DNA of 64,000 nt from NCBI GenBank assembly GCA_012646185.1, contig GCA_012646185.1_4706.1; one strand, written 5' to 3'. Of this stretch, positions 1,908-63,272 are shown one piece after another. The position numbers and the translations under genes were made by a program. The notes under the pieces are model-generated. The model searched no databases, was not told the DNA's origin, and saw only the letters and a list, made by a program, of their open reading frames with translations. This stretch comes from a phage. Within the stretch, counting starts at the first letter, position 1. The number at the start of each line of letters is the position of its first letter.

Positions 1908-1961
1908 TGTGTTAACAGCGGTAAAATATTACTGTAACTATAAAATAAGGGGGCCTCTCCC

Positions 1962-6972: not shown

Positions 6973-9384
6973 TTAAACGTCCTCGATAGGCAAAGGTTTA
7001 ACAATCAAACGATTGAGCGGATTCGATAGACGCATACTGATAGGCTTATACGCAGCATGATTCGTCTCACTTAGAGCCACTGATCTGAAACGACCGTTCA
7101 ACTGTTTGTAAATCGGTTCTATCCAGAGACCTCGAAGATCACGTTTACGGAAACGTTGTTCGAACGGTTTGATTGGGGTTACGGTTAACCCACGCAACGA
7201 CTCTGACGGCAGACGCTCACGAAGGTCGCGTGGTGCCCGACCTGGGAACGGTGCAAGCCACAACCCGTCAAGCGGATTTTTACGGAAACGTAACGAGACA
7301 GGATCACTAATGACTTGTGCCCAATATTGCGTACTGAATCGAACGGTTTGGGTATTCTCGTAACCGCTACAGTCACACCAGGTTGGTTTCGGAGGTGCTT
7401 CCAAACTTTCAACCGCTGATTCACGCCAGTTCGTCATCGGGTTGTTATCATGTACGAATTTGATAACTTCCGTAGCCTGGTTATCCGTATCATGAACGTT
7501 TGCCTGTGCCCAGTCTTCCCACAGTTCTTCACTACCACTTACTAAACTCGAACCAAGACGAACGGCGATTTTGTTTAGTGGTTTGATTGGATCACTGTTG
7601 ATTGTCTGGATAAAATGGATGGTGTAACTGCTCAATGTCTTAAGCAGCTGCAGCATTCCGTATTGAATATCCTTAAGACTGGTGACATCTTCCAAATCTT
7701 GACCGGTGGCCTTTGTGAAGATATCGAGAGCCAGAATTCCCGCCTCTTCTTGACTGATTGCGTCAAGCTCCCAATCCATCGCTAAGAACCATTCCTTGTA
7801 AAGCTGCCCAATACCGAAGTCGACACCAACATCCATGTAAAAGTTTTCAACGATTGCTTCAGCCATACCTCGAGCTTGATAATGCTCTTGGAGCTGGTAC
7901 ATGAACTGATGACGACGCCAGCCCTGGTAGATCTCGGTAACGGCGGTCAGAAACTCTTCAGTACTGACGACCGGACGCAATGTTACTTGCTTATCCAAAC
8001 ACCACCAGATCAGTTTATCGGGAATGATAGCAGGATCGGTAATGCTACGGAGATGGTCGAATGTCGGTAGCGTTAACACCCTGACGTGGTTAGCATGGAT
8101 CTTAGGTACTTCAATCAGCGTCATGCCCATCGAATAGTTCAGCAAATACAAGAACAGCTTGTAGGCATCTTTCATCGACATCGTCATGGTATCACCCGTC
8201 ACCGGGTTGGTTGTCGTTAACCGTGACTGATACATGCCTATCGCGCTAAGATGAATCCATTCGTTCAGCAGGAAATCATACTTAGGATACAGTTCACTGT
8301 CTGTAAGGTCTTCGGCTTCACTTTCCAACACCTTGGTCGTTAAGGTATTGTTGTCGTGCATCGACATCTTCTCTATCGTGCGGTTAAGCTCGGTATAATA
8401 CTCCGCTTCGTTATCCCGCGCTAGAGGGAACTGTTGTTGCATCACGGTAGTGACCTTACGTCTTACCGTGCCATTACCGACGATCTCTTGAAGGTTAAGC
8501 GGTTTACGCTCCATGTAAACAGCAGGTTTTAACGTCTGGGGTATCTCGGAAGCGTCTTGTTTGATCGAGAACGCACCGATTGGAATCCCACGATCGGTTA
8601 ATACCTTTTGAATGAGCTTATCGTAGTTTTCCGTTCTGCCCATGTTTCTTTCAACGTAAGCGATGTTACGATAGAACCAGAGCATTTGGGATTCGGTCAT
8701 GTATCGCTTGAATCGATCAAGACCTTGATGACTTGCCAGATAACTCCAGATATGGAAGCTATGGGCATAATGGGTATGACAGTTTTCCCAACGAATACCT
8801 TTTATCATCTCAGGTATTTGTGTGAATAGGATGGCGTATAGCGCAGGCCAATGAAGCATATCGACGCTCTCGTATGCCGGATGTTCCCAGCGTCTGAAGT
8901 AATCGTCGATTTCTTGCTGTAAACGTGGAATAAGATTGGCCTCGCGCGACTCAACCTCTTGTGTATCGTACCAGAGAATCTCATGATTGCGTGCCGCAAT
9001 TGCTTTCTCGATATCGATGGGGTTAAGGATACCCAAGATCAACATACGTTGTTCCGGGTACCGCGCAATTAAACGATTGAAATAATCTCCACCATACGCG
9101 TATTCCCTTGCCGTCATGCGATGCCGTAACATGTTTTCCTTAGTGAACTCGATCTCTTCGAGCGTATCCAGGGAATTTACGGTCATCATTGTCTGACAAG
9201 GATGATACTCGCCAGCGAGATTCATGTAGTATAACCACGTGCGTGGGTCGTCCCCGACGGCCATCTGGTAGACTTCGGAAACCTTGAGGTTTAACCGTTC
9301 TGCCGTGATGTCGCTTTTAATAATCAGGGTGTCCGTTAGACGCTGCACGCTTTCCGAATAAAGCTGATAGTCAGTGTTGGACAC
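6973..9384 (-). CDS. hypothetical large protein (~803 aa), start moved to GTG at 9382-9384
   Basis: Track start is TTG at 9453; the in-frame GTG at 9384 has a GGAGGA ribosome-binding site 7 nt upstream and avoids overlap with the divergent 9412 gene. C-terminus carries three short RFRKxxLxGLWxxP repeats. Confidence 0.75.
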   Translation of the reverse strand: MSNTDYQLYSESVQRLTDTLIIKSDITAERLNLKVSEVYQMAVGDDPRTWLYYMNLAGEYHPCQTMMTVNSLDTLEEIEFTKENMLRHRMTAREYAYGGDYFNRLIARYPEQRMLILGILNPIDIEKAIAARNHEILWYDTQEVESREANLIPRLQQEIDDYFRRWEHPAYESVDMLHWPALYAILFTQIPEMIKGIRWENCHTHYAHSFHIWSYLASHQGLDRFKRYMTESQMLWFYRNIAYVERNMGRTENYDKLIQKVLTDRGIPIGAFSIKQDASEIPQTLKPAVYMERKPLNLQEIVGNGTVRRKVTTVMQQQFPLARDNEAEYYTELNRTIEKMSMHDNNTLTTKVLESEAEDLTDSELYPKYDFLLNEWIHLSAIGMYQSRLTTTNPVTGDTMTMSMKDAYKLFLYLLNYSMGMTLIEVPKIHANHVRVLTLPTFDHLRSITDPAIIPDKLIWWCLDKQVTLRPVVSTEEFLTAVTEIYQGWRRHQFMYQLQEHYQARGMAEAIVENFYMDVGVDFGIGQLYKEWFLAMDWELDAISQEEAGILALDIFTKATGQDLEDVTSLKDIQYGMLQLLKTLSSYTIHFIQTINSDPIKPLNKIAVRLGSSLVSGSEELWEDWAQANVHDTDNQATEVIKFVHDNNPMTNWRESAVESLEAPPKPTWCDCSGYENTQTVRFSTQYWAQVISDPVSLRFRKNPLDGLWLAPFPGRAPRDLRERLPSESLRGLTVTPIKPFEQRFRKRDLRGLWIEPIYKQLNGRFRSVALSETNHAAYKPISMRLSNPLNRLIVKPLPIEDV

Positions 9385-9411
9385 GATCGGTCCTCCAAGG
9401 AGCCAGTGTAA

Positions 9412-12321
9412 ATGAACGATATAAATAAAGGGCGCGTCGCCCTCGAACGTCAAATGAGCAATAATGACGTTGCGAAGGCACTCATGAACAAATTTGTCGC
9501 TCCTGCTCCGCAGTCACGTCTTTATAATACACGTGATGCGGAAGGAGCGAACGGTCGTTTCGGGTTAGTTGTTCCCGACCAAATGACGATGAACACGGTT
9601 ACGCGTGCGACCGCGACAAACATCGAGGATAATAAAAACATCCTCGAGTTGTTCCCTGAACTTAAACGCGTGATGCAGATCTATGTTGCCGCGTTGACGA
9701 ACCCTAACGATCTTAAGACGGTCGAGATGTTTATCGACAGCGAAGATTTCCCCGGCAGAGTCGCAGAAATCGTTCAGCCGATGATCGATACCATCGACAC
9801 GCATTTTAAGAATATCTATAAAATAAAGACGCTTATCCCTCGTATCATCGAAGACGTCTTCTTTATCAAGGGCAGTTATAACTTCGTTGTTCTGCCAGAA
9901 AGCACGCTCGACCGCGCGATTAATGGTAACGGTCAACTGAAACTTGAAGAATACGGATTTAAAGACAACCATTTTGCAAGTTGGGGGCTTCTAGGTAACG
10001 ACAGTCGCAAACGCCACGAAAATCAATTACCCGCGACGGTTTCGATGGAAGATTATTTCTCGGGTGTTAATGAAACCATACCGTACGATCCTGTTGTTCG
10101 CATAGACAGCATTAAGTTTACCAATACCCTGCTTCGCGATAAGGACGGTAAATTCATTGAAGCGAAGATCGATATTCCGGATATGGTTACGGTTGTCGAT
10201 AACCCAGACATCCTCCGCATGCCCATTCTGCATCAACGTCGAGCAGCGACAGCAGTGCAGCGTGCGTTACGCGCAAACACGTTAGGAGGTAGTGGTTTGG
10301 TAACGCTGTCAGGCGATCCGACCCTAACCGCTAACCGACGCGAGCTAACGCAAGAACAGGTTAACGAGATCTGGAATAAGCTCAACATCCAACGTCACAC
10401 TAAGGTATCTCCCGTTTACGCGTTGGCGACTCCAGATACGCTTGATCGTCAAAGCGTCGGTCATCCTGGTGTGATGCACGTACCACCTGAGGCATTAGAA
10501 CCCGTACATGCGCCCGGTGATCCTGAGAACCATATCGGGTATTTGGTTCAGTTGGATGAGTTTGGTTATCCGGTGCGTTTGGTTGAAGATGCTGCATATT
10601 ACAAGCAGTTGGAAGGTCGGTTGTCGAAGATCACTGCAGATATCGCAGGCACGTCAAGCAACGGCATGGCGAGCGAGATGATTGGTGCGGCCAAGAACAT
10701 GATCCAAGGTACGTCATGTAATCAGGTAGACATGTCGGCCTTCGTATCGTCGTACGAATCGCTGATGCAACGTTACATCGTTGAACGTATTGTCAACGGT
10801 TATCTTGGCAGTGCGGTGGAGATCGGTGCGACATCATCGTTTTACCTATCGATGCTTGCCCGTAGCCTCGCTCACAAGCAGACCCGTGTTTTGTTTATTC
10901 CTCGAGAGATGGTGACTTACATCGCCTATGAATACAACAAATACGGTATCGGTCGTTCGCTGCTTGAAAGTACGAAGATGATCTCGTCGCAACGAGCCAT
11001 GCTCATGGTTCAAGAACTAATGGCGAAAATCAAAAGTTCGTTGAACTATACGACGTTAAGCGTAATGCTTGAAGACACCGACAGAAACCCGGTCGATACC
11101 GTCGAACAAGCACTGCATAGTTTCGCTCGTGTCTACCAGTCTGGTTTCCCGTTGGGTGAAACTAACCCGATGGATATCATCAACGCGTACGAACGAAGCT
11201 CGATTCGATTGAAGGTTGAGGGGAATAACCCACGCTTCCCGAAATTGAATACAGACGTCAGCGTTGAGCAGCGTAACTATCAGTCTCCTGATAATGAGCT
11301 GATGGATCGTTACCGTCGTGACCATTTCATGGGCTTGGGTGTGTCTCCGGAGATTATCGATACTTCCTACCAATCTGAATTCGCAGCTTCTGTGATTACA
11401 GCTAACGCGATGCAAGAGAAACAGTTCACGGTTTGTCGTGAGGTGATCACGAATGGATTATCGGACCACATCAAGAAATATACGGCATACAGTCCCGTGT
11501 TGTTGACGTCGTTACGAAACACGGTTCGTGCGAACATGTCTAAGCTCTCCCAGGCACAATTGAAGCAGCTTTTTGGTAGCGATTTCGAAAACGGTGTTAT
11601 CCGTAACGTTAACGCCTATCAGGAGATTGACGACCAATCAGCAACAATGGATCTGGATTACACTAAACCAGAAGTCCAGGAAGTTATTGCCGATGCTTAT
11701 GTGTCCATGTTCTTAAACAGCCTGCGTGTGCGTTTACCAGATAGCAATGCTCGTCGCCTTGAAGATCAGGTACGTGAATATAATCAGTACAAGGAAGCGA
11801 TTACTGCGCAACTTGATGATTATTTAACGCCTGATTACGTCATGGGTCTGGGTGGGGTTGATGAAACAACGCTGCAGATGATCCGCGCATGCATTATTGG
11901 TACCGCGATGCGTACGTGGGCAAAAGAGAACAACTTCAATCAGGAGCTGGCTGATCTCTTCAGTCTTGACGATAAGAAGAATGCCGTGCAAGATTGGAAA
12001 CGTATGTCCATGGAACATATTGAAGTCATGGGTAAATGCATGGGTGATTTTGCATTGTATATTCAGAATCTGACGAAGAAGATTGAAGAGAAGATGGGAG
12101 CTCAAGCACAGGACGGCAGCGTTTCATCTGACGGTTCGTGGTCATCCGATTCAAGTAGCGATACCGGTTCTTCTGATGACTTCGGTGGCGGTGACGATTT
12201 CGGAGATACTGATTTCGATACCGAAACGATGGAGGAAACCTCAACAGAAGAAACAACCACATCTGAGGATACGACGACCGACACAACGTCAGAAGACGAT
12301 ACTTCAGGTGGCGTTGTCTAA
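9412..12321 (+). CDS. large virion-type protein (969 aa) with acidic S/T/D-rich C-terminal tail; possibly portal (weak guess)
   Basis: ATG with AAGGAG ribosome-binding site 9 nt upstream; C-terminal ~70 aa low-complexity acidic tail; A-run and terminator hairpin downstream. Confidence 0.8.
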   Translation: MNDINKGRVALERQMSNNDVAKALMNKFVAPAPQSRLYNTRDAEGANGRFGLVVPDQMTMNTVTRATATNIEDNKNILELFPELKRVMQIYVAALTNPNDLKTVEMFIDSEDFPGRVAEIVQPMIDTIDTHFKNIYKIKTLIPRIIEDVFFIKGSYNFVVLPESTLDRAINGNGQLKLEEYGFKDNHFASWGLLGNDSRKRHENQLPATVSMEDYFSGVNETIPYDPVVRIDSIKFTNTLLRDKDGKFIEAKIDIPDMVTVVDNPDILRMPILHQRRAATAVQRALRANTLGGSGLVTLSGDPTLTANRRELTQEQVNEIWNKLNIQRHTKVSPVYALATPDTLDRQSVGHPGVMHVPPEALEPVHAPGDPENHIGYLVQLDEFGYPVRLVEDAAYYKQLEGRLSKITADIAGTSSNGMASEMIGAAKNMIQGTSCNQVDMSAFVSSYESLMQRYIVERIVNGYLGSAVEIGATSSFYLSMLARSLAHKQTRVLFIPREMVTYIAYEYNKYGIGRSLLESTKMISSQRAMLMVQELMAKIKSSLNYTTLSVMLEDTDRNPVDTVEQALHSFARVYQSGFPLGETNPMDIINAYERSSIRLKVEGNNPRFPKLNTDVSVEQRNYQSPDNELMDRYRRDHFMGLGVSPEIIDTSYQSEFAASVITANAMQEKQFTVCREVITNGLSDHIKKYTAYSPVLLTSLRNTVRANMSKLSQAQLKQLFGSDFENGVIRNVNAYQEIDDQSATMDLDYTKPEVQEVIADAYVSMFLNSLRVRLPDSNARRLEDQVREYNQYKEAITAQLDDYLTPDYVMGLGGVDETTLQMIRACIIGTAMRTWAKENNFNQELADLFSLDDKKNAVQDWKRMSMEHIEVMGKCMGDFALYIQNLTKKIEEKMGAQAQDGSVSSDGSWSSDSSSDTGSSDDFGGGDDFGDTDFDTETMEETSTEETTTSEDTTTDTTSEDDTSGGVV

Positions 12322-15303: not shown

Positions 15304-17100
15304 TCAATCGATTATGTCGTGATCGTTAATTTCTACAATTTCTTCATCGAATCGACCGACGTCTTTCTTCAAGCCTGCATTGGTTGCTGCAACGTCATTT
15401 GCAATTTGTGGGGTAATGATTAACCGACCGCGCTCATCGATAGGTGCGTACATACTGAACTTCTGACGTCCGGTTGGTTCGGAGTGTGGAAGATTCAGAT
15501 AGCTTGCACAGAACGGGATGGAACCACTAACCAAACGACTCTCGTCAGCCAATGCAGCACCGCCTGCGTTTTGGCTCTGGAGAACAACATGCGTGCTCAC
15601 TTTGAACAGCATGCAATCACCAGGTGACTGAATCGATGTTGCCACTTTCTCACGTTTATCACGATTGCTCTGGATATTGAGAATCGCTTCCGTTGCAACT
15701 TGATTTCGCAACGCCTTCTGTACATCGCGATTGGTCATCTCTTTACGGTTGTTCTGTCGTTTACCACGTTCTGTGGTTTTAAGATGGAACCCCAGTTTAA
15801 AGATGCTCTTACGCACATCCTCCATGACATATTCCAACACCATCAATTCCTTACCGAACATCGTCGTGGTGTCAACACGACTCATTTCGATAGTGACATT
15901 GTCAATCAGATACGCCATAAATTCATAGAAGTCGTCGCAAGGAATATTTTCCTGTTTGAACTTCTTCTGCTGAATTTCGTCAACGTAAAGATCGAGACTG
16001 TCGATGTGGTGGTTTACATCACGCAACAAACGCGCATCCGCATTGTTGTTATTAAAGATAATCAAACCGAGTAATGTACGCCAATGGTCTGGCGCATTCG
16101 CGAACTCTTCAACCGGATAGTCTTCCGGAAAACGATCGTAATAACGGTCGATGAGATACAAGAATGCACCGACAAGGCCAAGAACAATACGTTCCGTGCC
16201 TCCACGTCTTACAGCAATTTGAATATCAGGATGTTTGTAACGTACAGCGCTAGCGCTACGGCTTTTACCGCTTTTGCTGATACTAAAGCCTTTAGGAATA
16301 ACCCCCATGGTGCGATAGATTACCCATTGGTCACGCGGAAAATCACGTTCAGCAAGGTTCCGTCCGGTTACGGCTTCGACACCTGCAAAACGTCGGAAAC
16401 ACTCACCCACCCCGTACTTCGCAAAGAGATAGTGACCCAGTGTGGTTACGCTGGTGTGGTTGATGTTGTCACCGTTCACTTTACTTTGTTTAGTAAGATG
16501 ATAGATTTGCGACCAGGGTAATGACAGGTAATGACGATAATCGATACCGGTCGGTGTATCGTTGCTCAGGAACTGATACGGTGTACGTTTAACCGTGATT
16601 TTGTCACGCGGAAGCATGATGAACGCCATGTCTTTCGTGTAACTGATTACGGGGTCAGCGAGTACCGCACTGAGAATGAAGTTCGCACCACGTAGACGCA
16701 TTTTACCACCCTGACCTACCGCGGGTAATAGGAGAGGATGTCGGATAATGCAGTAGTCCTTTCCGGGTTCACGACGGTCACCTGATTCCATCGCGCCGTA
16801 CCAGCGGAATTCTAGCATCACCATAAACACATCGGAAGGCGCAAGGTCGAAGGTCAGCTTACCGCTATCCTTCCCTTTGGTTTTCTTTCCTCCGCTTAAG
16901 TAGTGGAACTGTTCGCGGGCCATACAGCGACGCAGGCCATGATACACCAGATCCTTAGGTAAACTATCTTTGCTGTTCCGCCAAAGACGATCAACATAGG
17001 ACTCAACATCTTGCATCTTATCGACGACGATGTTGCGTGCTATCTTCTCGTTCATCTTCGGTGCAAGCTCAGCGACAGCTTTGCAGAATCTAGGATCCAT
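15304..17100 (-). CDS. hypothetical protein (~598 aa), start moved to ATG at 17098-17100
   Basis: Track start GTG at 17103; adjacent ATG has AAAGGAG ribosome-binding site 6 nt upstream. Confidence 0.8.
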   Translation of the reverse strand: MDPRFCKAVAELAPKMNEKIARNIVVDKMQDVESYVDRLWRNSKDSLPKDLVYHGLRRCMAREQFHYLSGGKKTKGKDSGKLTFDLAPSDVFMVMLEFRWYGAMESGDRREPGKDYCIIRHPLLLPAVGQGGKMRLRGANFILSAVLADPVISYTKDMAFIMLPRDKITVKRTPYQFLSNDTPTGIDYRHYLSLPWSQIYHLTKQSKVNGDNINHTSVTTLGHYLFAKYGVGECFRRFAGVEAVTGRNLAERDFPRDQWVIYRTMGVIPKGFSISKSGKSRSASAVRYKHPDIQIAVRRGGTERIVLGLVGAFLYLIDRYYDRFPEDYPVEEFANAPDHWRTLLGLIIFNNNNADARLLRDVNHHIDSLDLYVDEIQQKKFKQENIPCDDFYEFMAYLIDNVTIEMSRVDTTTMFGKELMVLEYVMEDVRKSIFKLGFHLKTTERGKRQNNRKEMTNRDVQKALRNQVATEAILNIQSNRDKREKVATSIQSPGDCMLFKVSTHVVLQSQNAGGAALADESRLVSGSIPFCASYLNLPHSEPTGRQKFSMYAPIDERGRLIITPQIANDVAATNAGLKKDVGRFDEEIVEINDHDIID

Positions 17101-17139
17101 CACACACTCCTTTCAGAAAGTTGCTTAAGCAGATTAAAG

Positions 17140-18726: not shown

Positions 18727-18746
18727 CACCTAGGTAATGTAAGCGT
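18727..18746 (-). promoter_or_regulatory. conserved motif CACCTAGGTAATGTA (plus strand), candidate promoter element
   Basis: Same core as elements at 25205-25267 and 63861-63924; lies after a terminator and ~150 nt upstream of the 18576 start. Confidence 0.3.
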
Positions 18747-18784
18747 CAAATTTTTTCTATTCGCAACAATAAACGGCATAGAAA

Positions 18785-18814: not shown

Positions 18815-18913
18815 CTGACTTATGTATCACGGTGCCGGATGAATGTCCGGTGCAATGAAACCATCCGCAACGTTGTCGTCAAGAATATCGTCCAACGAAG
18901 CAGCTACGGTAGT

Positions 18914-21136
18914 TCAGTTAGTCTGAACCGGCAGCTTGATGTTTTCAGTGTAGACCTTACGCAGGTTCACAACGTTAATCAGACCCAGCAGCGGGCAGTT
19001 GTTAACGAAGCGGCAGCGCGGCTGAACCATGGTTTCTTTAGAAACCTGACCGTTACGGGTAACCTGAGCAACAGATACCAGTTCCGGTACATACAGGAAC
19101 ATACCGAAGGTCAGCGGATCCGGAGAACCCTGGATACCACGAGACAGGGTCACGAAGATCTTATCGCGCAGCATGACGTTCGGGTTATCTACAACCACGA
19201 AGTTGAAGCTTACACCAACGGTACGGAAATCGCCATCGGTCTGCAGGAACTGCGGGATGTAGTTGTCAGTTGCTACTACGCAACGCGGTTTCTCATCAGC
19301 GTTGGAAGACAGCAGCTGCAGAGCTGGCTGATAACCAGACTCGGAGTACATGCGGTATGCCATCTCACGAATCACGTTCATGATCGCAGCAGACACTTCA
19401 GCACGACGTTCTGCAGTGGTGGTACCCTGAACAGATTTCTCCAGGTCCAGATTGATTTCTTCGAACCACGGACGGATCAGGTAACGACCGAAACCTTCGA
19501 TCTGGATGTCGCCGAACTGACGGAAGCGAGAGGTCGCAACCGCTTTCAGTGCGTCTTTGTAGCTGAACAGTTTCTCAACCATCAGGTTGTCGAAACGTGC
19601 GTTAGCAGCTTGGATCAGAACGTCCAGGTCAGCAGCGTTTTCTTCCCAATCCAGCGGACGAGGAATGGAGAACGGAGCCAGCAGGCCGATTGCGTAACGT
19701 TCTTGCTTCATGTTGAAGTCAAGGTGCTTACCGCGCTCACGACGGTTGCTGTTGTTACGGCGGATACGCAGTTCGTAACCAACCAGTTTGAAGCTCAGGT
19801 CTTCAGCCAGCTGTTTGAACTCTTCGCCCTTACGCGGTTGTTCGATGTTGTCACGATCGACCAGACGATACAGTTCAGCGTTAGCGCCGTTAACACGCAG
19901 ACCGGCTTTCTCTACGTTGGAAGAACCGTAAACTTCGATTGCCAGCTGAGCAGCGGATTTCGAATCGATGATGTCCTGCAGCGCTTCAGCTCGTGCACCT
20001 TTAACGTCAACGGTGTTCTCATCAACGAAGATGGAGTGGGTGTCGAACGCCAGGGTCATTTTGCGGAAGTCGCCTTCCAGGGATTTCTGGAAACCGTTGG
20101 TGATCAGACCAGATACGTCGAACGGTACGTAAGAGGTTTTGCTGTGCTTGGTAGATTTGATTTCCACCAGGATTTTGGTCAGCGTGATCTGGGCGTCCAG
20201 CGCGTCGGTGTTGTCGCTGTAACCGTTAGCCAGGATGCTATCGTCTTCAGCGATACCGATCATGTCGATCAGTTTATCAACAGCCAGGTAAGACGTTTTA
20301 TAAGTTACGCCTTTAATTTCGATGTCGCGCGGAGCAACGATAGCTTTGTCAACGAAGTACTGTGCGTTAGCATCGTCAGCACGATAGATCGGATGCAGAT
20401 CGGTCACGTCGTTGGACAGAACGTCGTTGTACATGAACGCATCCAGCAGCGGACGACGTACCCAATCAGCCGGAGTACCGTCAGCGTTACGACGCAGGTG
20501 GTTGAACACCAGCGGACGACGGAAAGATACGTCGTAACCGATCTGGTTCGGAGCCAGAACGATGGTGTTGTACAGTTCGTTACCCATGCGGCTCAGACGA
20601 GAAGCCTTCACGTTGAACACAACGGAGTACGGCATCATGTCACGCAGTTCTTTCTGGTCGTAGGACAGCTGAACCAGTTCTTCAGATTCGCAACCGCAGG
20701 AATCAGCAGCCATCATGACGAAGTTAGAGCTGTCAACTTCACGGCCAGACGGAGTGGTGCTGATGTTCATGGAACGTGCTTGTTTAGCATATTCCACCGG
20801 GTTACCATGAGCCAGCATGATCAGTGCTGCTGCACGAGCCTGCTGTGCGTTCATGGTGAACAGCTGTTCTTCAATACGCTGCTTCTCTTCCGGAGTGGTG
20901 GTTTCGAAGCCCAGCATGGACAGAACCGGTTCTTCGGCTTTACGGATGTCGCTGCTGAAGCTCTTAACATCCATTTCGTTAACCAGTTTGTCCATGGATT
21001 TGAAATCAACCTTAGAAGCAGATTCCATAGACAGGAAGGTGTTCTCCAGACCTTTGTCTGCTGGTTTGCTACCATTAGCGGTCAGGAACTGGCGAGTGGC
21101 CGCGACCTGTTGGCTAAGAAGGGTTTTATCATTCAT
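18914..21136 (-). CDS. putative major capsid protein (740 aa)
   Basis: ATG at 21134-21136 with AAAGGA ribosome-binding site; length close to the ~750-aa capsid proteins of phiKZ-like phages (recollection, not verified); strong host-like codon bias; own terminator. Confidence 0.55.
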   Translation of the reverse strand: MNDKTLLSQQVAATRQFLTANGSKPADKGLENTFLSMESASKVDFKSMDKLVNEMDVKSFSSDIRKAEEPVLSMLGFETTTPEEKQRIEEQLFTMNAQQARAAALIMLAHGNPVEYAKQARSMNISTTPSGREVDSSNFVMMAADSCGCESEELVQLSYDQKELRDMMPYSVVFNVKASRLSRMGNELYNTIVLAPNQIGYDVSFRRPLVFNHLRRNADGTPADWVRRPLLDAFMYNDVLSNDVTDLHPIYRADDANAQYFVDKAIVAPRDIEIKGVTYKTSYLAVDKLIDMIGIAEDDSILANGYSDNTDALDAQITLTKILVEIKSTKHSKTSYVPFDVSGLITNGFQKSLEGDFRKMTLAFDTHSIFVDENTVDVKGARAEALQDIIDSKSAAQLAIEVYGSSNVEKAGLRVNGANAELYRLVDRDNIEQPRKGEEFKQLAEDLSFKLVGYELRIRRNNSNRRERGKHLDFNMKQERYAIGLLAPFSIPRPLDWEENAADLDVLIQAANARFDNLMVEKLFSYKDALKAVATSRFRQFGDIQIEGFGRYLIRPWFEEINLDLEKSVQGTTTAERRAEVSAAIMNVIREMAYRMYSESGYQPALQLLSSNADEKPRCVVATDNYIPQFLQTDGDFRTVGVSFNFVVVDNPNVMLRDKIFVTLSRGIQGSPDPLTFGMFLYVPELVSVAQVTRNGQVSKETMVQPRCRFVNNCPLLGLINVVNLRKVYTENIKLPVQTN

Positions 21137-21285
21137 TGAAAGTATCCTTTACAGAATTAACTTATATAAGTCGGTCGATAGACCATAGCGTACACGCGTG
21201 CATGCGCCACTATAGTATCAGTAAACACTTACCGTTATTGAGGTCGTGATACAACACTAAAAATGCCGCATAACTTTTCCCTACG

Positions 21286-21906
21286 TCACAAACGACGCAG
21301 GCGATAATGGATGGAACGATTGGTGCAATATGAACGGAACAGCGGCAATTGCGCAACTTCCGCAAGACTCATATTAATTCGCAGGTGTTCAATAACGGCG
21401 CTGTAGTTATCAGCAATACGATCGCTCAATAACTCTTCTGCCAATAAAGGAAGACAATCGACAACAATCGCGATCACATCCTCATTAACATAACGCACCC
21501 GAACACTCAGCGGACGTTTGTCTGGGCTGTAAGTTGGATCCGCCAAACGACGTTCAATATCACGCGGATAGCTCGTCAGTAAATGGTAATAACCATTGTC
21601 ATAACGATTGATGTACTCACACAGCACATCAACATTCTTCTCTGGCGGCAAACCTGTTTCGTCATAGTGATACGCAAACATACCACCAAGCAGGTTGTTA
21701 AGATGAACCGCAGGGTTCGCTTGTTCGTGTTCTTTCGTGATGAAGAAAGGCACGTTCTGGGCTGCGAAATAAAAACCTACATCATTGGGCGATAGTATGC
21801 CGAAAAGACTTTTAGGGTCTAATAACACCTGTAAGTCATCACGCGCATTTCGAATAATCGCGTGTTCTACCCAATTCGGAACGACGAGATATCGGAGTTC
21901 CTTCAT
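21286..21906 (-). CDS. hypothetical protein (206 aa)
   Basis: ATG at 21904-21906 with AAGAGG ribosome-binding site. Confidence 0.8.
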   Translation of the reverse strand: MKELRYLVVPNWVEHAIIRNARDDLQVLLDPKSLFGILSPNDVGFYFAAQNVPFFITKEHEQANPAVHLNNLLGGMFAYHYDETGLPPEKNVDVLCEYINRYDNGYYHLLTSYPRDIERRLADPTYSPDKRPLSVRVRYVNEDVIAIVVDCLPLLAEELLSDRIADNYSAVIEHLRINMSLAEVAQLPLFRSYCTNRSIHYRLRRL

Positions 21907-21945
21907 TATGATTACCTCTTTGCAAGTATCGAAAGGATTGAGTCG

Positions 21946-23556
21946 ATGGACCCAAAACAGATAGCCATTAAGATTATTACGTTACTGTTTCGTAATGCAC
22001 AATTGAACCATCCCGATCCCAGTACGATCGAACATGTTAAATCCGTCTTAGATAAAGTCGAACCCCCGAAAAACCATCTCGCTACAGACGTAGATAGAGA
22101 GGTTTTCAACAACCTGATGAATACCATTCATTGGATGTTGGAACAACCATTATCGGAACCTTTCGATAAACAACAGTTGTTACAAAGGATACGTTTGGAT
22201 TGCCTTGAACAAAGCAATCTTTACGAGATTCTTGCCGACGGACTGTACGATATCGAAGACGACGCTCATATCAGTAAGGTCTGTTCGCTCTATTACAATG
22301 AATTACGTAATCTGATTACCCGGCGTCGTGTTTTCGAAACCTTTAAAAACACGTACATGGATATCAGTAACGGGCGACTTGGGGATAAAGAATTTTTCGA
22401 TGCGATGGCGAATCTGAAATTATCGCTAGACAGTATCGAAATGGATACCGAAAATCCCGAAGAGATGTCGTGTATGATTGACGGCTTTATCGCTGACAGC
22501 GAAGACGATATCGAGAAAGTTGAACGTATGTTCGTCAAAGCGATGGAACGTAACAGTCCTGAAGGTGGATTTGTAACCGGCTGGCAAGGCTTTAATAAAA
22601 TGTTGGGGTCGGTCGGCGTTTTACGTCGCGGTACCTTAGGACTGATTGGTGCAATGCAGCACCGGAACAAGTCAGGCGTGTTGTTAAAACTGTTCACACA
22701 TCTGGCATTGTACAACAAACCCCATTTCTTTTTCCCAGAGCGAGCAAAGAAAGCATTACTGATTCATTTGTCGACAGAAAACGAAGTGGAAGAAAACACG
22801 CTTCAGATATACAAGAACATGCGAGAACAGGAAACGGGCGAATATGTCGATATTCGTAAGATTGACCCTCGCGAGGCATCACGTTATGTGTTGAAGGTGT
22901 TCAACGATGCGGGTTTCTCTGTTTGTATGCGTCGTGTTGATGGGATGAGTTATAAACAACTCGCTAATCTCATCGACCATTTCGAACGCATGGGTTATGA
23001 AGTCATGGCGTTGTTCATTGACTATCTGAAAATGTTCTCATCGGAAGGGTTGGATAGAAATGGACCGACCGGCGCATGGCTCCAAGAACTCTTCAACAAA
23101 GTCCGTAACCTCTGCAGCGTTAAACGTATTTTAGGTATGACGGTACACCAGCTGTCATCCGATGCGAAGATGCGTGCGCGTGATGGTAACGATGAAGAGT
23201 TTGTTGACCAGGTCGCAGGTTTAAGTTACTGGGATGGTTGTAAAGGGATCGACCGTGAGATTGACCTTGAGGTGATTGTTGATATCGTTAAGGAGCCGGG
23301 CAAACGTCAAAGTTGGCAGGTCTTTGCGTTAGGGAAAGACCGTCAACCGGATAACGGTTCAACGAAACCTGAAGACAAACATTTCGCGATGCCATTCCAA
23401 ACCATCGGGATGCTTCCTGATGATTACGGTAAGAAAGCAGTATACTGCCGCAAGGTTGGCGGACAACCTGTCTCCGAGGGAGGTAAAGGTCCGTGGAACA
23501 AGTTCGATGAAAACGCAGCACCGAGTAATGAATTACAATTTGATTTAGAATTTTAA
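21946..23556 (+). CDS. putative DnaB-like helicase (~536 aa) with atypical P-loop
   Basis: Start moved from GTG 21862 to ATG 21946 (AAAGGA, 8-nt spacer). GWQGFNKMLGSVGVLRRGTLGLIGAMQHRNKSG parallels the DnaB Walker A region; ALFIDYL resembles DnaB Walker B IDYLQL; QLSSD follows. Confidence 0.5.
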   Translation: MDPKQIAIKIITLLFRNAQLNHPDPSTIEHVKSVLDKVEPPKNHLATDVDREVFNNLMNTIHWMLEQPLSEPFDKQQLLQRIRLDCLEQSNLYEILADGLYDIEDDAHISKVCSLYYNELRNLITRRRVFETFKNTYMDISNGRLGDKEFFDAMANLKLSLDSIEMDTENPEEMSCMIDGFIADSEDDIEKVERMFVKAMERNSPEGGFVTGWQGFNKMLGSVGVLRRGTLGLIGAMQHRNKSGVLLKLFTHLALYNKPHFFFPERAKKALLIHLSTENEVEENTLQIYKNMREQETGEYVDIRKIDPREASRYVLKVFNDAGFSVCMRRVDGMSYKQLANLIDHFERMGYEVMALFIDYLKMFSSEGLDRNGPTGAWLQELFNKVRNLCSVKRILGMTVHQLSSDAKMRARDGNDEEFVDQVAGLSYWDGCKGIDREIDLEVIVDIVKEPGKRQSWQVFALGKDRQPDNGSTKPEDKHFAMPFQTIGMLPDDYGKKAVYCRKVGGQPVSEGGKGPWNKFDENAAPSNELQFDLEF

Positions 23557-25005: not shown

Positions 25006-25204
25006 CGTATTTTACCTTTCTATGTTAGGTGGATTGCGGATAGAAGAATCAATGCATAGATTGATAGTTCTTTGTTAGAAATTATTGCCGAACCGGTTAT
25101 GGTTATAACGCGTGTTTTCGTATTCTGACGGGTCGCGTATTAATAAGGCCATGACTGTATCCTCGATTATTAAGAGAAATTTACAACGATAACAGTAACC
25201 GCTG

Positions 25205-25267
25205 TTATCACCTAGGTAATGTAGTCGCGAAATAAACTGGAGTAATGCGAAATAAGACAGCATAGAA
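25205..25267 (-). promoter_or_regulatory. conserved ~60-nt element, candidate phage promoter
   Basis: About 85% identical to 63861-63924; plus strand reads CACCTAGGTAATGTAGTCGCGAAATAAACTG...CGAAATAAGACAGCATAGAA. Confidence 0.35.
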
Positions 25268-42125: not shown

Positions 42126-43232
42126 TTAACGAATCTGTGGGACGTTTCCGGTACGGAGCGCCTGGAGGATCGTCAGAAGATCGGAACCCGAGGTTGACGA
42201 ACTGTTGGATTTTTCCAGTTGCTTGAAGCTTACGGTGGTCCCTTGATCCAAGCTGTGGAAATAGAAGGTCACCATCTCTTCAGCTTCGTCGATGATGATC
42301 AACTGCATTGCGAGGGCTTCAGCCATGACTTTCTGACGTGTGGTATAGTCAGATAAACGACGTCCGATCTTACGCTCGATGGCTTCCTGGTTAGCCTTAG
42401 AGATGATATAGGTGGAGGCGATTGCTCCAGAAGAAGGGATCTTTGTGCTCGCTGCAGCTTTTGCGGCATTGATGCGCGCAGCGTTAACAGCCTTACGGAT
42501 ACCCTCTTTATCCATGCGTGAGATTCGTTTATGCTCACGAACCAGATCGCTAAGCAGGATCATATCGCTCCAGAAAGATAGCTCACCGGCCATCATGCGA
42601 TGCCAACGTGCTCGCCAGGTGTTCTGTGGACCGCCAATCGCTAAAATCGACGCAAGCACTTCCGCTGGCGAACTCGCGATACGCATGCTGATGTTCAACG
42701 GCATTTTCATCGTTGCCTGACCATCGGTCAGCGTCACGGTTAAGAACTTGCCGGTGACCGCGTTCGCATCTTTGTTCAGCAATTCGATCGCTGCGTCGCT
42801 GGCTCCAACATCGAGGCTATTTTTTTGTTTCCCTTGCAGGTTGAATCCTTTGTCATCAAGGAAAACAAGGCTTTTGCTATCCGCACTTTCCAGCGCTAAT
42901 TTAATAGCCTTATCCGTCAGGTTAGCGTTACGATTTGGGTTAACACGACCCAGCGTTTTATCGACACTGATGTTACCCACCTGCATGATGGTATTCAACG
43001 CCAGTAAATAGAACCCGGTATACATGTTTTCAGCGGTGCGCATGCAGTTGCCTAACGCATTGCGTGCGTCGCTATAATACAACTCACGTTCAAAGATCAA
43101 CGGCGCGATAACGCGTGAAGGTTGTGAGAGTTCAACCAACGAACCTGGCTGGATAAGTTTATTAACTTCGTAGACTTTAGCGATACCGGACGCAACAACG
43201 TTAACAGCGTCGGCAATTTCTGATGCTACCAT
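42126..43232 (-). CDS. hypothetical protein (368 aa)
   Basis: ATG at 43230-43232; divergent from the 43267 gene. Confidence 0.8.
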   Translation of the reverse strand: MVASEIADAVNVVASGIAKVYEVNKLIQPGSLVELSQPSRVIAPLIFERELYYSDARNALGNCMRTAENMYTGFYLLALNTIMQVGNISVDKTLGRVNPNRNANLTDKAIKLALESADSKSLVFLDDKGFNLQGKQKNSLDVGASDAAIELLNKDANAVTGKFLTVTLTDGQATMKMPLNISMRIASSPAEVLASILAIGGPQNTWRARWHRMMAGELSFWSDMILLSDLVREHKRISRMDKEGIRKAVNAARINAAKAAASTKIPSSGAIASTYIISKANQEAIERKIGRRLSDYTTRQKVMAEALAMQLIIIDEAEEMVTFYFHSLDQGTTVSFKQLEKSNSSSTSGSDLLTILQALRTGNVPQIR

Positions 43233-43266
43233 ATTGAAATCCTTATTTACAAATAAAGGAAAGAAA

Positions 43267-44472
43267 ATGTCTAATTACTACGACCAAGCTATTCAAACCA
43301 TTCAGGAGAATAATGCGTCGTTAACACCCGAAGCTGTGGAGGCAGCGGGCAATGCGGTGTTATTCACTGATTCGGATTGGGCAATAGCGCGGAAGAATAT
43401 TCGTACCAGTGTCGGTCAAGGGACATACGAGGACAGTATCGCCAGACGGTATCGGAATGTGTCACCTATTCCGGGTAACAGTCCGATTCCGATTAACCGC
43501 GATCATGCCGGTATTACCTTCTTCACACGACCTAATTTACATCTTACCGACGCGAACTTAAAACGAGATCGACGTTTGTGGTCGTTACGTACGGATAACC
43601 CTAACAGTATTCAGGCTGTTGTCCGTGACTACTTGGACCCTGTGGGTGCCAGAAAGCGGAACCATCGAGGACGTGCCATCGTCGATGAGCGCAATCCATT
43701 CATAAGTATACTGACGGACAACCTGACGGATATCAGCGGTTTCAATGACATGGAAATGCAGGTCTATCAGGGCAAACCGGGATTACGCCAAGAAACCGTT
43801 GTGATGGCTGACGGTTCGGTGGATATGTTCCAGCCTTATAACCTGAACGCGACATTCAAGAACATCATGGGTAACCCCATCATGTTCCTTCATTATATTT
43901 GGTTGATTTACATCGCTGGTGTGCATAATGGCGAACTGACGCCAAGCCCTCAGGCCATCATTGATAATGAAATGGATTACTGGACAAGATGTTATCGTAT
44001 CATCCTGGATCCGACTGGGATGTATGTTCGTTATATCTTCGCACCGACCGCGATGTTTCCTGTCGGACTACCGATTGGTAATATGGCTAACTACAGCATC
44101 GATAAACCCTTCACGCAAGATAACGAACGTATCACTATCCCATACCAAGCGGTTGGTAACAACGCATTCGATGAAATTCTGAAGGATGAATTCAATCGCC
44201 TTGTCCTGATGTTCTATTACGGTGAGAACGATACCCGTACGTTCCTTGAAGATGAGGAGTTGGTACCTATCTCACCCTACGAGCGTCGAATCATGTCGTA
44301 TCGTGTCGATATGTATCCATTTATTCATCCGTTGACCTCAGAGCTTCTTTGGTTCGTACCCGCCGATGATTACAACGAATTCTATCTGGATCTTGAGCCG
44401 TCGGCGTTACCACCGGATACGTTCAGTCGCGATCTTGTCCGTACCACCATTCCGCAAAATTACGAGGGATAA
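43267..44472 (+). CDS. hypothetical protein (~401 aa), start moved from TTG 43234 to ATG 43267
   Basis: ATG at 43267 has AAAGGAAAG ribosome-binding site; the track TTG start would overlap the divergent gene. Confidence 0.8.
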   Translation: MSNYYDQAIQTIQENNASLTPEAVEAAGNAVLFTDSDWAIARKNIRTSVGQGTYEDSIARRYRNVSPIPGNSPIPINRDHAGITFFTRPNLHLTDANLKRDRRLWSLRTDNPNSIQAVVRDYLDPVGARKRNHRGRAIVDERNPFISILTDNLTDISGFNDMEMQVYQGKPGLRQETVVMADGSVDMFQPYNLNATFKNIMGNPIMFLHYIWLIYIAGVHNGELTPSPQAIIDNEMDYWTRCYRIILDPTGMYVRYIFAPTAMFPVGLPIGNMANYSIDKPFTQDNERITIPYQAVGNNAFDEILKDEFNRLVLMFYYGENDTRTFLEDEELVPISPYERRIMSYRVDMYPFIHPLTSELLWFVPADDYNEFYLDLEPSALPPDTFSRDLVRTTIPQNYEG

Positions 44473-57513: not shown

Positions 57514-57606
57514 CCTTCGTTCTGTAAAAACTTACCGATATATAGAAATTACTGTGAGATACCAAAGGTACTCGTAAGTTTAGTAATTTCTGAGCGGTAG
57601 GTAAAT

Positions 57607-62669: not shown

Positions 62670-63272
62670 TTACATGCTTTCTAACATATCGATGATCATG
62701 GAACCCATACCGAAACTCGGTCTTTCACCGATGTACTCAGCAAGCTGGCGATGGACGTCTTTTGGATTTCCTTCTTCACCATCGGCATCGATGTAGACCG
62801 AAAAAGAAAATGAATCGGAATCCACGCTGATAACCAGACGACGTTCATTGCGTTCCTTGAGCGTGTCGACGATAGCTGCTTTCAGTACTGCGATCGCGTT
62901 CATCGCGTGCAAGATATCTCCATCGGGTTTCGGCAGATCGATCTTTTCTTTCAGGTCGATATTGATGTTGGTTACAATTGGGTTGAGGTCGACCTTGACG
63001 TAATCGTTAGGGTACATGCGAATAATCGCACGATCGATATCTGAACCGTAAAAGTCAACACGTGGCTTTAACACTTCTTTGTTTGGATCCATGTTTTCAT
63101 CCATACCCGCCTGCAAGAAACGTTCTACGTTATCCAGTTCACGATAAACTGACGCTTCGATTTCTTTCAGATAGTTGGCTGCGGTTTCATGTTCTTTACG
63201 CAGCTCGTCTTTAAGGAGCTGTACGGTGACTTCACTGGAACGAATGCTGTTCGCGAATTGGGTAATTGACAT
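62670..63272 (-). CDS. hypothetical protein (~200 aa), start moved to ATG at 63270-63272
   Basis: Track start TTG at 63302; ATG at 63272 has AAGGAA ribosome-binding site 6 nt upstream. Confidence 0.75.
   Translation of the reverse strand: MSITQFANSIRSSEVTVQLLKDELRKEHETAANYLKEIEASVYRELDNVERFLQAGMDENMDPNKEVLKPRVDFYGSDIDRAIIRMYPNDYVKVDLNPIVTNINIDLKEKIDLPKPDGDILHAMNAIAVLKAAIVDTLKERNERRLVISVDSDSFSFSVYIDADGEEGNPKDVHRQLAEYIGERPSFGMGSMIIDMLESM

What the first reader, a model, noticed from the sequence alone, without database searches (positions are those of the whole stretch)
9384..9412. Back-to-back divergent genes whose ribosome-binding sites share one short spacer
At 9384/9412 both divergent ribosome-binding sites sit in the palindromic tcctccAAGGAG (GGAGGA on the minus strand, AAGGAG on the plus). 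The same arrangement occurs at 21906/21946 and 43232/43267, with only 27-40 nt between start codons. Promoters for both genes must therefore lie inside the neighbouring coding sequence, which fits very short phage-specific promoters.
Basis: seen in the sequence. Interest (0 to 1): 0.4.

Follow-up and report, generated by a model that had tools for sequence, protein, structure and literature searches.

The report
Back-to-back late genes, jumbo phage
Three pairs of head-to-head genes in a Goslar-like jumbo phage really are only 27-39 bases apart. This is ordinary for the family, whose own RNA polymerase needs only a four-base start-site signal and often starts inside the neighbouring gene.

Summary
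The window is about 97% identical to Escherichia phage Goslar, a nucleus-forming, phiKZ-like jumbo phage. The start-codon pairs 9384/9412, 21906/21946 and 43232/43267 lie 27, 39 and 34 nt apart. All six genes have a 5-6 nt Shine-Dalgarno match at 6-9 nt spacing. Four N-termini were traced to phiKZ homologues, and RefSeq Goslar uses the same starts.

Two junctions are ancient. The gp128/gp129-type pair (J1) and the gp89/gp88-type pair (J3) are head-to-head, mostly about 11-53 nt apart, in roughly eight other genera.

Published Goslar RNA-seq shows all six genes need the phage nucleus, so they are not early genes. No early or middle promoter motif, and no sigma-70 site above chance, lies at the junctions.

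In phiKZ, mapped start sites for both orthologous junctions lie inside the neighbour's coding sequence, 106 and 215 nt upstream. The phiKZ non-virion polymerase recognises only TATG at the start site.

At 21907-21910 a TATG sits in the spacer itself, 36 nt before the helicase ATG.

No start-site map exists for this phage, so exact start sites remain inferred. This is known biology and of low interest.

The parts
6973..9384 (-). J1 minus gene (Goslar gp035, homologue of phiKZ gp128 virion protein). Starts with GTG at 9384.
   Evidence: ORF listed. tblastn against phiKZ covers residues 1-400, reaching the PHIKZ128 start. SD is GGAGG at 7 nt. Late class in Goslar RNA-seq.
9385..9411 (.). J1 spacer, 27 nt. 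It holds the minus-strand SD (9391-9396, read as GGAGGA) directly abutting the plus-strand SD AAGGAG (9397-9402).
   Evidence: Sequence. Identical in Goslar. Orthologous spacers: 35 nt in phiKZ and 201phi2-1, 32 in Bosolaphorus, 24 in PCH45, 11 in EC001.
9412..12321 (+). J1 plus gene (Goslar gp036, homologue of phiKZ gp129 virion protein).
   Evidence: ORF, with an in-frame TAA immediately upstream. tblastn against PHIKZ129 gives E = 2e-71. Late class.
21286..21906 (-). J2 minus gene (Goslar gp042). It occupies the position that gp119 holds in phiKZ, between the major head gene and the helicase.
   Evidence: ORF. Goslar annotation. Synteny with phiKZ. SD is GAGGT at 7 nt. Late class.
21907..21945 (.). 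J2 spacer, 39 nt, holding both SDs.
   Evidence: Sequence. Identical in Goslar.
21907..21910 (+). Candidate start-site promoter TATG (G at 21910 as +1) for the helicase gene. It abuts the start codon of the minus gene.
   Evidence: The G lies 36 nt upstream of ATG 21946, inside the 20-60 nt range where sense TATG is enriched upstream of Goslar late genes. This is inferred, not mapped.
21946..23556 (+). J2 plus gene, a DnaB-like replicative helicase (Goslar gp043).
   Evidence: Annotation. tblastn against the phiKZ helicase aligns from residue 3, E = 9e-61. Late class.
42126..43232 (-). J3 minus gene (Goslar gp061, homologue of phiKZ gp089 head protein).
   Evidence: E = 1e-31. SD is TAAGGA at 7 nt. 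Late class.
43233..43266 (.). J3 spacer, 34 nt. It forms an AT-rich quasi-palindrome, TCCTTATTTAC/AAATAAAGGA, made by the two SDs.
   Evidence: Sequence. Orthologous spacers: 39 nt in phiKZ, 36 in 201phi2-1, 53 in Simmy50, 34 in Xoo-sp14, 25 in EC001, 25 in OBP, about 29 in PhiEaH1.
43267..44472 (+). J3 plus gene (Goslar gp062, homologue of phiKZ gp088). It is followed by the gp087 homologue at 44476-47469.
   Evidence: E = 9e-51. The N-terminus is similar to phiKZ and 201phi2-1. Late class.
15304..17103 (-). Gene for the beta-like subunit of the phage non-virion RNA polymerase (Goslar gp039, homologue of phiKZ GP123). In phiKZ this is the subunit that binds TATG.
   Evidence: blastp against PHIKZ123 gives E = 4e-57 at 24% identity. 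Of the 14 published pocket residues, 7 are identical and 2 conservative (residues from PMC12809450). Early class.

Best explanation
These are genuine head-to-head junctions between late genes of a Goslar-like chimallivirus. The genes are expressed only once the phage nucleus exists. Each spacer holds essentially nothing except two ribosome-binding sites on opposite strands. At 27 nt, J1 is close to the physical minimum for that.

No intergenic promoter space is needed. By homology with phiKZ, these genes are read by the phage's own non-virion RNA polymerase. In phiKZ its only sequence-specific promoter element is a 4-bp TATG at the start site, bound by the beta-like subunit. That subunit's homologue is encoded in this window at 15304-17103. 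The rest of the polymerase footprint, out to about -30, is sequence-non-specific and can sit on coding DNA.

Transcripts therefore start in one of two places:
- In the spacer itself. The candidate is TATG 21907-21910 for the helicase.
- Inside the neighbour's coding sequence, giving 5'UTRs antisense to the neighbour's 5' end. This is what has been mapped experimentally at the orthologous phiKZ junctions.

Shown here: the gene starts, the SDs, homology, conservation of the short gaps, absence of other promoter types, and the phiKZ start-site positions.

Taken from the literature: the late class of the genes, and TATG recognition.

Inferred: the polymerase assignment and the start-site positions in this phage.
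For: - Identity: 97.8% to Goslar over 5.5 kb, and 96.9% over 49 kb.
- Starts and SDs are verified.
- All six genes fall 16-128-fold on ChmA knockdown in Goslar, while neighbouring gp037-040 and gp044-047 are unaffected.
- Early-promoter PWM hits head every early block, and none lies at the junctions.
- No exact GTAA-N4-TTAC (middle-type) motif lies near the junctions. One 1-mismatch copy sits 104-115 nt upstream of the helicase ATG, at chance frequency.
- Sigma-70-like sites occur at or below chance.
- phiKZ has J1 and J3 orthologous gaps of 35 and 39 nt, the two shortest of 16 divergent gaps in its first 200 kb. Mapped start sites there are 130258(+) inside gp128 and 88779(+) inside gp088.
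- In phiKZ, 24 of 43 late and 23 of 25 unclassified start sites lie inside CDSs. By contrast 0 of 10 early and 2 of 15 middle start sites do.
- TATG is the only specific contact of the phiKZ nvRNAP.
- Sense TATG is enriched in Goslar late upstream regions, 48 observed against 18.8 expected, peaking 20-60 nt before the ATG.
- Short gaps are conserved across genera.
Against: - No start-site map exists for Goslar or this phage.
- J1 has no TATG within 320 nt on either strand. The J2 minus gene and the J3 plus gene have none within 320 nt either. The nearest TATG for the J3 minus gene is 192 nt upstream, at 43424.
- The phiKZ TATG upstream of gp129 is not conserved at the homologous Goslar codons, which read TTTTAATAA.
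- Five of the 14 TATG-pocket residues differ in the Goslar-type subunit, including the Tyr that encloses T-1. The motif could therefore differ in this phage.
- TATG is a 4-mer, so single sites carry little statistical weight.
Confidence: 0.72

Rival explanations
1. The minus-strand genes have no local promoter. They are read through from far-upstream same-strand promoters, and the plus-strand genes are 1-2-gene inverted islands transcribed antisense within long minus-strand units.
For: - Every plus gene at these junctions is a 1-2-gene island in a minus-strand context.
- At the fourth short Goslar junction (gp171/gp172, 31 nt), the minus gene sits in an early block headed by an early promoter at 160784, upstream of the island.
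- At J3 the upstream minus genes gp064-067 are also late, so read-through cannot be excluded there.
Against: - At J1 and J2 the upstream minus genes (gp037-040, gp044-047) are early, while gp035 and gp042 are late.
- Knockdown read counts drop from hundreds to about 10 across the boundary, so early transcripts do not read through.
- This rival does not explain the plus genes, which still need a start upstream on the other strand.
- Even if true, the start still lies inside the neighbour's CDS or beyond it.
Confidence: 0.15
2. The start codons are mis-called. The real starts lie further downstream, and ordinary intergenic promoters fill longer gaps.
For: Start calling in phage genomes is error-prone. 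Several relatives do show annotation slips at these loci: PhiEaH1, RSF1 and the phiKZ helicase.
Against: - Six of six genes have SDs at canonical spacing, against about 3% at random positions.
- The traceable N-termini align to phiKZ homologues at or near residue 1: gp035 at residue 1, gp043 at residue 3, and gp062 by N-terminal similarity.
- The same starts are used in RefSeq Goslar.
- Short gaps recur independently in about 10 genomes.
Confidence: 0.03
3. The inverted repeat in each spacer is a functional element in its own right. It would be either an operator for a regulator, or an RNA hairpin in which the complement of the neighbour's SD sequesters the gene's own SD.
For: Each spacer contains CCTCC...GGAGG-type inverted repeats. 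Minimum-free-energy folds of read-through 5'UTRs do pair the two SD-derived arms at J1 and J3. The regions flanking the junctions are somewhat better conserved against Goslar than average (Fisher p about 0.05).
Against: - The inverted repeat is an automatic by-product of two SDs on opposite strands.
- Folding energies are no better than shuffled sequence, with z between -1.9 and +0.9.
- The J1 loop would be only 2-3 nt.
- Spacer sequences are not conserved between genera beyond the SDs.
Confidence: 0.05
4. Host sigma-70 RNA polymerase promoters embedded in the flanking coding DNA drive these genes.
For: One weak sigma-70-like match (9 of 12 positions) spans the J2 spacer on the minus strand, at 21932-21905.
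Against: - Such matches occur at or below the shuffle expectation at all three junctions.
- phiKZ-like phages develop independently of host RNAP (PMC4666361).
- Expression of these genes requires the phage nucleus.
Confidence: 0.02

Closest known systems
phiKZ gp128/gp129 and gp088/gp089 divergent junctions, with ONT-cappable-seq start sites P070 (130258) and P046 (88779)
   Same: The gene pairs are orthologous and share the head-to-head orientation. The gaps are 35 and 39 nt, against 27 and 34 nt here. They encode late structural genes. Their mapped start sites lie inside the neighbour's CDS.
   Different: No start sites are mapped in this phage. The phiKZ TATG positions are not conserved at the homologous codons. 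In phiKZ only one gene of each pair has a mapped start.
phiKZ non-virion RNA polymerase late promoter (T-3 A T G+1, e.g. P119L)
   Same: A homologous polymerase is present, including the GP123-type subunit. Sense TATG is enriched 20-60 nt upstream of late genes. The J2 helicase has such a TATG 36 nt upstream. The minus gene at J2 occupies the gp119 position.
   Different: In phiKZ the helicase/gp119 gap is about 140-211 nt, with P119L in the intergenic DNA. Here the gap is 39 nt. Four of the six genes lack a nearby TATG. Half of the pocket residues differ.
phiKZ overlapping or back-to-back divergent start sites (81893-/81932+/81969- at gp083/gp084; 134420+/134428-; 157220-/157249+)
   Same: Two TATG-type starts on opposite strands lie within a few tens of bp, and some sit just inside the neighbour's CDS. 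This gives complementary 5' ends.
   Different: Those phiKZ gaps are about 100 nt, and the start sites are experimentally mapped.
Compact bidirectional promoters of bacteria and other phages (sigma-70 type)
   Same: Two divergent transcription units share one short control region.
   Different: Sigma-70 divergent promoters need roughly 70 bp or more of -35/-10 DNA (general knowledge, not tested here) and are usually intergenic. Here there is no room for them, and no such motifs are present.

Membership tests
Chimalliviridae / Goslarvirus genome | High nucleotide identity and synteny with Escherichia phage Goslar | tested here: met
   97.8% identity over 5.5 kb. 96.9% over 49 kb, with the remainder at 89-94%. 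The gene order matches the Goslar annotation.
phiKZ-type nvRNAP start-site (late) promoter | The phage encodes the non-virion multisubunit RNAP, including the GP123-type beta-like subunit | tested here: met
   Window ORF 15304-17103(-) against PHIKZ123 gives E = 4e-57. Goslar also has gp171, a homologue of gp071 plus gp073.
phiKZ-type nvRNAP start-site (late) promoter | TATG with G as +1, a few tens of nt upstream of the start codon | tested here: inconclusive
   Present for the J2 plus gene (21907-21910, 36 nt upstream). Absent within 320 nt for J1 on both strands, for the J2 minus gene and for the J3 plus gene. For the J3 minus gene the nearest is 192 nt upstream. Across the genome, sense TATG is enriched upstream of late genes.
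phiKZ-type nvRNAP start-site (late) promoter | The genes belong to the non-early class, which depends on the phage nucleus and nvRNAP | tested here: met
   Published Goslar RNA-seq shows log2FC of -4 to -7 on ChmA knockdown for gp035, 036, 042, 043, 061 and 062. These data are for Goslar, not this exact phage.
phiKZ-type nvRNAP start-site (late) promoter | Conservation of the GP123 pocket that reads TATG | tested here: inconclusive
   7 of 14 residues are identical (S144, F151, K158, K190, H331, S334, Q466). Two are conservative (H185Y, Y406F). Five are changed, including Y399K. The alignment is pairwise at 24% identity.
phiKZ-type nvRNAP start-site (late) promoter | Experimentally mapped primary 5' ends at the motif | not testable with these tools
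   No start-site map of Goslar was found. Only phiKZ orthologues are mapped.
vRNAP early promoter (TATATTAC type) | A roughly 35-nt conserved AT-rich element upstream of the gene | tested here: not met
   The PWM built from 8 Goslar sites gives 13 hits, all at the heads of early blocks and none at the junctions.
phiKZ-type middle promoter (AAanTTAC; here GTAA-N4-TTAC) | The motif lies upstream of the gene | tested here: not met
   Exact motifs in the window are at 1921, 1974, 16639, 21221, 23525 and 57524 only. A single 1-mismatch copy at 21831 occurs at chance frequency.
Host sigma-70 promoter | -35 and -10 hexamers with 16-18 nt spacing | tested here: not met
   0, 1 and 1 weak matches were found, against 1.3-1.7 expected from shuffles.

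The most novel reading that the evidence does not exclude
The ultra-short head-to-head junctions could be a conserved, selected architecture of chimallivirus structural modules. The two mRNAs would necessarily carry mutually complementary 5' ends, each long 5'UTR containing the complement of the partner's SD and start region. Expression of the paired virion genes would then be coupled or balanced by antisense pairing or by transcriptional interference. On this reading the arrangement is more than genome compaction.
Probability: 0.12. Interest if true: 0.45.

Novelty: new member of a known kind. Interest (0 to 1): 0.2.

Why it matters
It matters mainly for annotation and engineering. In Goslar-type phages the control DNA for several essential late genes (virion proteins and the replicative helicase) is buried in the first codons of the neighbouring gene. 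Knock-outs, recoding, or dCas13/ASO targeting of one gene's 5' end may therefore hit the partner's promoter or 5'UTR.

The family-wide conservation of the gp128/gp129-type and gp89/gp88-type junctions gives well-defined test cases. They could be used to ask how a polymerase with a 4-bp promoter selects its start sites. The finding does not change current understanding of jumbo-phage transcription.

Tried and rejected
1. RNA structure in the spacers. Folding the spacer plus 12 nt on each flank, on both strands, gave energies indistinguishable from shuffles, so no riboregulator is claimed.
2. Sigma-70 promoters and intrinsic terminators at the junctions. Nothing exceeded chance except one terminator-like hairpin at 9428-9444(-). 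It is not conserved in phiKZ.
3. De novo motif search (k-mers and a Gibbs sampler) on Goslar upstream regions. It recovered the early promoter, the terminator tail TTTATGC[CT]G and a GTAA-N4-TTAC palindrome. None of these occurs at the three junctions.
4. Homologous-position test. The phiKZ TATG inside gp128 aligns to TTTTAATAA in this phage, and the phiKZ TATG inside gp088 is not at a homologous codon. Start sites therefore cannot be transferred by alignment.
5. Supplementary start-site tables for 201phi2-1 and the journal version of the phiKZ paper are not held. The Ceyssens 2014 paper is not held either.
6. Rfam and tRNA scans of the window found nothing.
7. Relation between temporal class and gap length. 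All six Goslar gaps of 64 nt or less join same-class genes, but this is not significant (p about 0.2 from my own hypergeometric count, 8008/38760).
Full report
WHAT THE WINDOW IS

A 5.5-kb piece around the first junction is 97.8% identical to Escherichia phage vB_EcoM_Goslar. Over the whole window the first 49 kb align at 96.9% and the rest at 89-94%. Goslar is a nucleus-forming, phiKZ-like jumbo phage of the Chimalliviridae. These phages carry two multisubunit RNA polymerases of their own: a virion enzyme for early genes and a non-virion enzyme (nvRNAP) for later genes.

CHECKING THE OBSERVATION

- J1. A GTG at 9384 on the minus strand is preceded by GGAGGA, 6 nt away. An ATG at 9412 on the plus strand is preceded by AAGGAG, 9 nt away. 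The two Shine-Dalgarno (SD) boxes abut, and 27 nt separate the start codons. An in-frame TAA directly before 9412 excludes any longer plus ORF.
- J2. The starts at 21906 and 21946 are 39 nt apart.
- J3. The starts at 43232 and 43267 are 34 nt apart.

In a uniform scan of all 247 Goslar genes, the six junction genes have 5-6 nt matches to the SD consensus at 6-9 nt spacing. The genome's modal spacing is 6-8 nt, and a match of 5 nt or more occurs at about 3% of random positions.

RefSeq Goslar uses exactly these starts (gp035/036, gp042/043, gp061/062).

Homology supports four of the N-termini:
- gp035 aligns from residue 1 to the annotated start of PHIKZ128. Most of the 40 records listed out of 290 matching also align from residue 1.
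- The helicase gp043 aligns from residue 3.
- The N-terminus of gp062 resembles those of phiKZ gp088 and 201phi2-1 gp150.
- gp061 and gp036 align only from residues 27 and 45.
- gp042 has no detected phiKZ homologue.

The word 'palindromic' is only loosely correct. CTCC-AA-GGAG is the inverted repeat that two SDs on opposite strands always produce.

IS IT MORE THAN CHANCE?

Goslar has 20 divergent gene pairs. Their gaps are 27, 31, 34, 39, 54 and 64 nt, and then 96-254 nt. Three of the four shortest are the ones in this window.

Two of them are ancient.

The gp035/gp036 pair is orthologous to phiKZ gp128/gp129. Its gaps in other phages are:
- phiKZ, 35 nt
- 201phi2-1, 35 nt
- Erwinia phage Bosolaphorus, 32 nt
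- Serratia phage PCH45, 24 nt
- the SPN3US-like EC001, 11 nt
- Ralstonia RSF1, 11 to 47 nt depending on the start chosen
- Vibrio VP4B, 74 nt as annotated

The gp061/gp062 pair is orthologous to phiKZ gp089/gp088. Its gaps in other phages are:
- phiKZ, 39 nt
- 201phi2-1, 36 nt
- Simmy50, 53 nt
- Xoo-sp14, 34 nt
- EC001, 25 nt
- OBP, 25 nt
- PhiEaH1, about 29 nt
- a Bacillus relative (AgentSmith), 109 nt

In the first 200 kb of phiKZ these two are the shortest of 16 divergent gaps.

J2 is different. In phiKZ the helicase and gp119 are 211 nt apart as annotated. The distance is nearer 140 nt if the helicase start is corrected. The compaction at J2 is therefore lineage-specific.

WHICH POLYMERASE READS THESE GENES?

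I recovered the Goslar early promoter de novo. It is TTCACGGCTATATTACTTAnGTGA, the phiKZ TATATTAC type. A weight matrix built from it finds 13 sites, all on the minus strand.

Published Goslar RNA-seq compares a control strain with a ChmA (nuclear shell) knockdown at 30 min (bioRxiv 10.1101/2023.09.20.558163, supplementary table). It splits the genome cleanly into two groups:
- Knockdown-insensitive blocks, each headed by one of these early-promoter sites.
- Knockdown-dependent genes.

All six junction genes drop by log2 4-7. Their neighbours gp037-040 and gp044-047 are unaffected. The junction genes are therefore non-early, nucleus-dependent genes. By analogy with phiKZ, the nvRNAP reads them.

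None of the following lies at the junctions:
- the early motif;
- an exact copy of the second motif I found, GTAA-N4-TTAC, which resembles the phiKZ middle element AAanTTAC;
- sigma-70-like sites above chance.

WHERE ARE THE PROMOTERS?

For phiKZ the answer is known in outline. Late promoters are T(-3)ATG(+1) with G as the start. The motif is necessary, and nothing conserved lies upstream of it (PMC4666361). A 2026 structure shows the four bases held in a pocket of the beta-like subunit GP123. There are no other base-specific contacts, and non-specific backbone contacts extend to about -30 (PMC12809450).

The window encodes the GP123 homologue at 15304-17103 (E = 4e-57). Of the 14 published pocket residues, 7 are identical and 2 conservative, but 5 differ. 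A similar motif is plausible in this phage but not proven.

In Goslar, sense-strand TATG is enriched in the intergenic DNA upstream of late genes (48 observed against 18.8 expected). The excess sits 20-60 nt before start codons, matching phiKZ late 5'UTR lengths.

At J2 a TATG occupies 21907-21910. It abuts the minus gene's start codon and lies 36 nt before the helicase ATG. It is a good candidate start site within the spacer itself.

The other five genes have no TATG in their spacers. Four of them have none within 320 nt upstream.

EXPERIMENTAL EVIDENCE FROM THE ORTHOLOGOUS JUNCTIONS

ONT-cappable-seq of phiKZ (Table S3 of bioRxiv 10.1101/2023.10.13.562163) lists two relevant start sites:
- 130258(+), with context ...AAATTTTATGA. 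It lies 106 nt upstream of the gp129 ATG and 70 nt inside the gp128 coding sequence.
- 88779(+), with context ...TATCGTATG. It lies 215 nt upstream of the gp089 ATG, inside gp088, and heads a unit covering gp089, gp090 and gp091.

I checked both against the genome sequence. The sequence column of that table is shifted by one row for P042-P047, but the coordinates agree with the paper's transcription-unit table.

Among 93 phiKZ start sites in the first 200 kb:
- early: 0 of 10 lie inside annotated CDSs;
- middle: 2 of 15;
- late: 24 of 43;
- unclassified: 23 of 25.

Nine start sites lie inside a CDS on the opposite strand, and seven of those are upstream of a divergent neighbour. Back-to-back and even overlapping divergent starts exist, for example 81932(+)/81969(-) and 134420(+)/134428(-).

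VERDICT ON THE INTERPRETATION

Promoters here are very short and phage-specific. The polymerase must sit on the neighbour's coding DNA. In the model relative, the start sites of the orthologous genes do lie inside the neighbour's gene.

It is overstated in one respect. The recognised motif need not lie inside the neighbouring CDS, as the J2 candidate shows. Nothing has been measured in this phage. I cannot place the start sites for J1, J3 or the J2 minus gene.

The main rival is that the minus genes are served by read-through from distant same-strand promoters. For J1 and J2 this is contradicted by the early-to-late class switch and the roughly 30-fold drop in knockdown read counts across the boundary. 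It remains open for J3, and it probably applies to the fourth short Goslar junction, gp171/gp172.

Folding gives no support for a structured element.

The ±100-nt regions around the three junctions show 0, 2 and 1 differences from Goslar, against a mean of 7.1 per window of that size. Divergence is patchy, and the combined significance is only about 0.05. I treat this as a weak hint of extra constraint.

NOVELTY

The mechanism and the phenomenon are already documented for phiKZ, and the gene starts are already annotated in Goslar. What this analysis adds is modest:
- The two structural-gene junctions are kept ultra-short across roughly eight genera.
- There is a specific start-site candidate at J2.
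- Three Goslar promoter and terminator motifs were recovered by computation.

Interest is low.

Noticed in passing
window 18839-21139 (+), overlapping 18914-21136 (-): A 766-aa ORF runs fully antisense to the major head protein gene. It is a shadow ORF caused by extreme codon bias. The capsid gene has 0 TTA/CTA/TCA codons in 740 (64 of 68 Leu are CTG), against a genome mean of 3.3%. The Goslar copy has one TCA, and phiKZ gp120 has 47 such codons.
   Followed up: yes
window ~18729-18758 (-), ~25203-25250 (-), ~63867-63896 (-): Early (virion RNAP) promoter-like sites with the consensus TTTCACGnCTAyATTACCTnnGTGA, the Goslar version of the phiKZ TATATTAC early promoter. Each heads a block of knockdown-insensitive early genes: gp040-037, gp047-044 and gp075-070.
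   Followed up: partly
window 1921-1932, 1974-1985, 16639-16650, 21221-21232, 23525-23536, 57524-57535: The palindrome GTAA-N4-TTAC occurs 6 times against 1.03 expected in the window. In Goslar it occurs 16 times against 4.6 expected, with 12 of 16 copies in the 7% of the genome that is intergenic. It lies upstream of late genes such as the major head, tail sheath, gp029/030 and gp069. It resembles the phiKZ middle-promoter element AAanTTAC, and being palindromic it could act in both directions.
   Followed up: partly
window 9428-9444 (-): A terminator-like hairpin, GAGGGCG-ACG-CGCCCTT followed by TATTTATATC, lies on the minus strand inside codons 6-11 of the plus gene gp036, about 45-60 nt upstream of the gp035 start. 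It resembles the hairpin-plus-TTTAT module that precedes many genes in this phage. It is not conserved in phiKZ gp129.
   Followed up: partly
Goslar-wide; e.g. window region upstream of gp052, gp057, gp076 equivalents: Intrinsic terminator hairpins are followed by a conserved tail, TTTATGC[CT]G. This is the same kind of motif as the phiKZ terminator consensus ...GGBYTTATKYYGT. The tail itself contains TATG, so terminators and possible late start sites are interleaved (PMC10914365).
   Followed up: partly
L011 (phiKZ) 117451-117519; L014 (PhiEaH1) 1225-1369; L022 (RSF1) 401-437; phiKZ 62781-63020 (-): Likely annotation slips in relatives. The phiKZ RefSeq helicase PHIKZ_p43 start looks at least 63 nt too short. 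The PhiEaH1 AGX01952 start is too far upstream and overlaps its neighbour. The RSF1 gp100 start is 36 nt too short. An unannotated phiKZ ORF is homologous to Goslar gp172.
   Followed up: partly
bioRxiv 10.1101/2023.10.13.562163, supplementary Table S3, rows phiKZ P042-P047: The '50 bp upstream region' column is shifted by one row relative to the TSS coordinates for these rows. The coordinates agree with the paper's transcription-unit table, and TATG is present at 81893, 81932, 81969 and 88779 in the genome.
   Followed up: yes
Goslar 155765/155797 (gp171/gp172), outside the window: A fourth ultra-short divergent junction (31 nt) joins two genes scored as early. No plus-strand early promoter exists anywhere in Goslar, so the 'early' reads for gp172 may be antisense read-through, if the RNA-seq is not strand-specific.
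   Followed up: partly
window 9284-9512, 21806-22046, 43132-43367: The ±100 nt around the three junctions differ from Goslar at 0, 2 and 1 positions, against a mean of 7.1 per 236-nt window. Divergence is patchy, and the combined p is about 0.05.
   Followed up: partly
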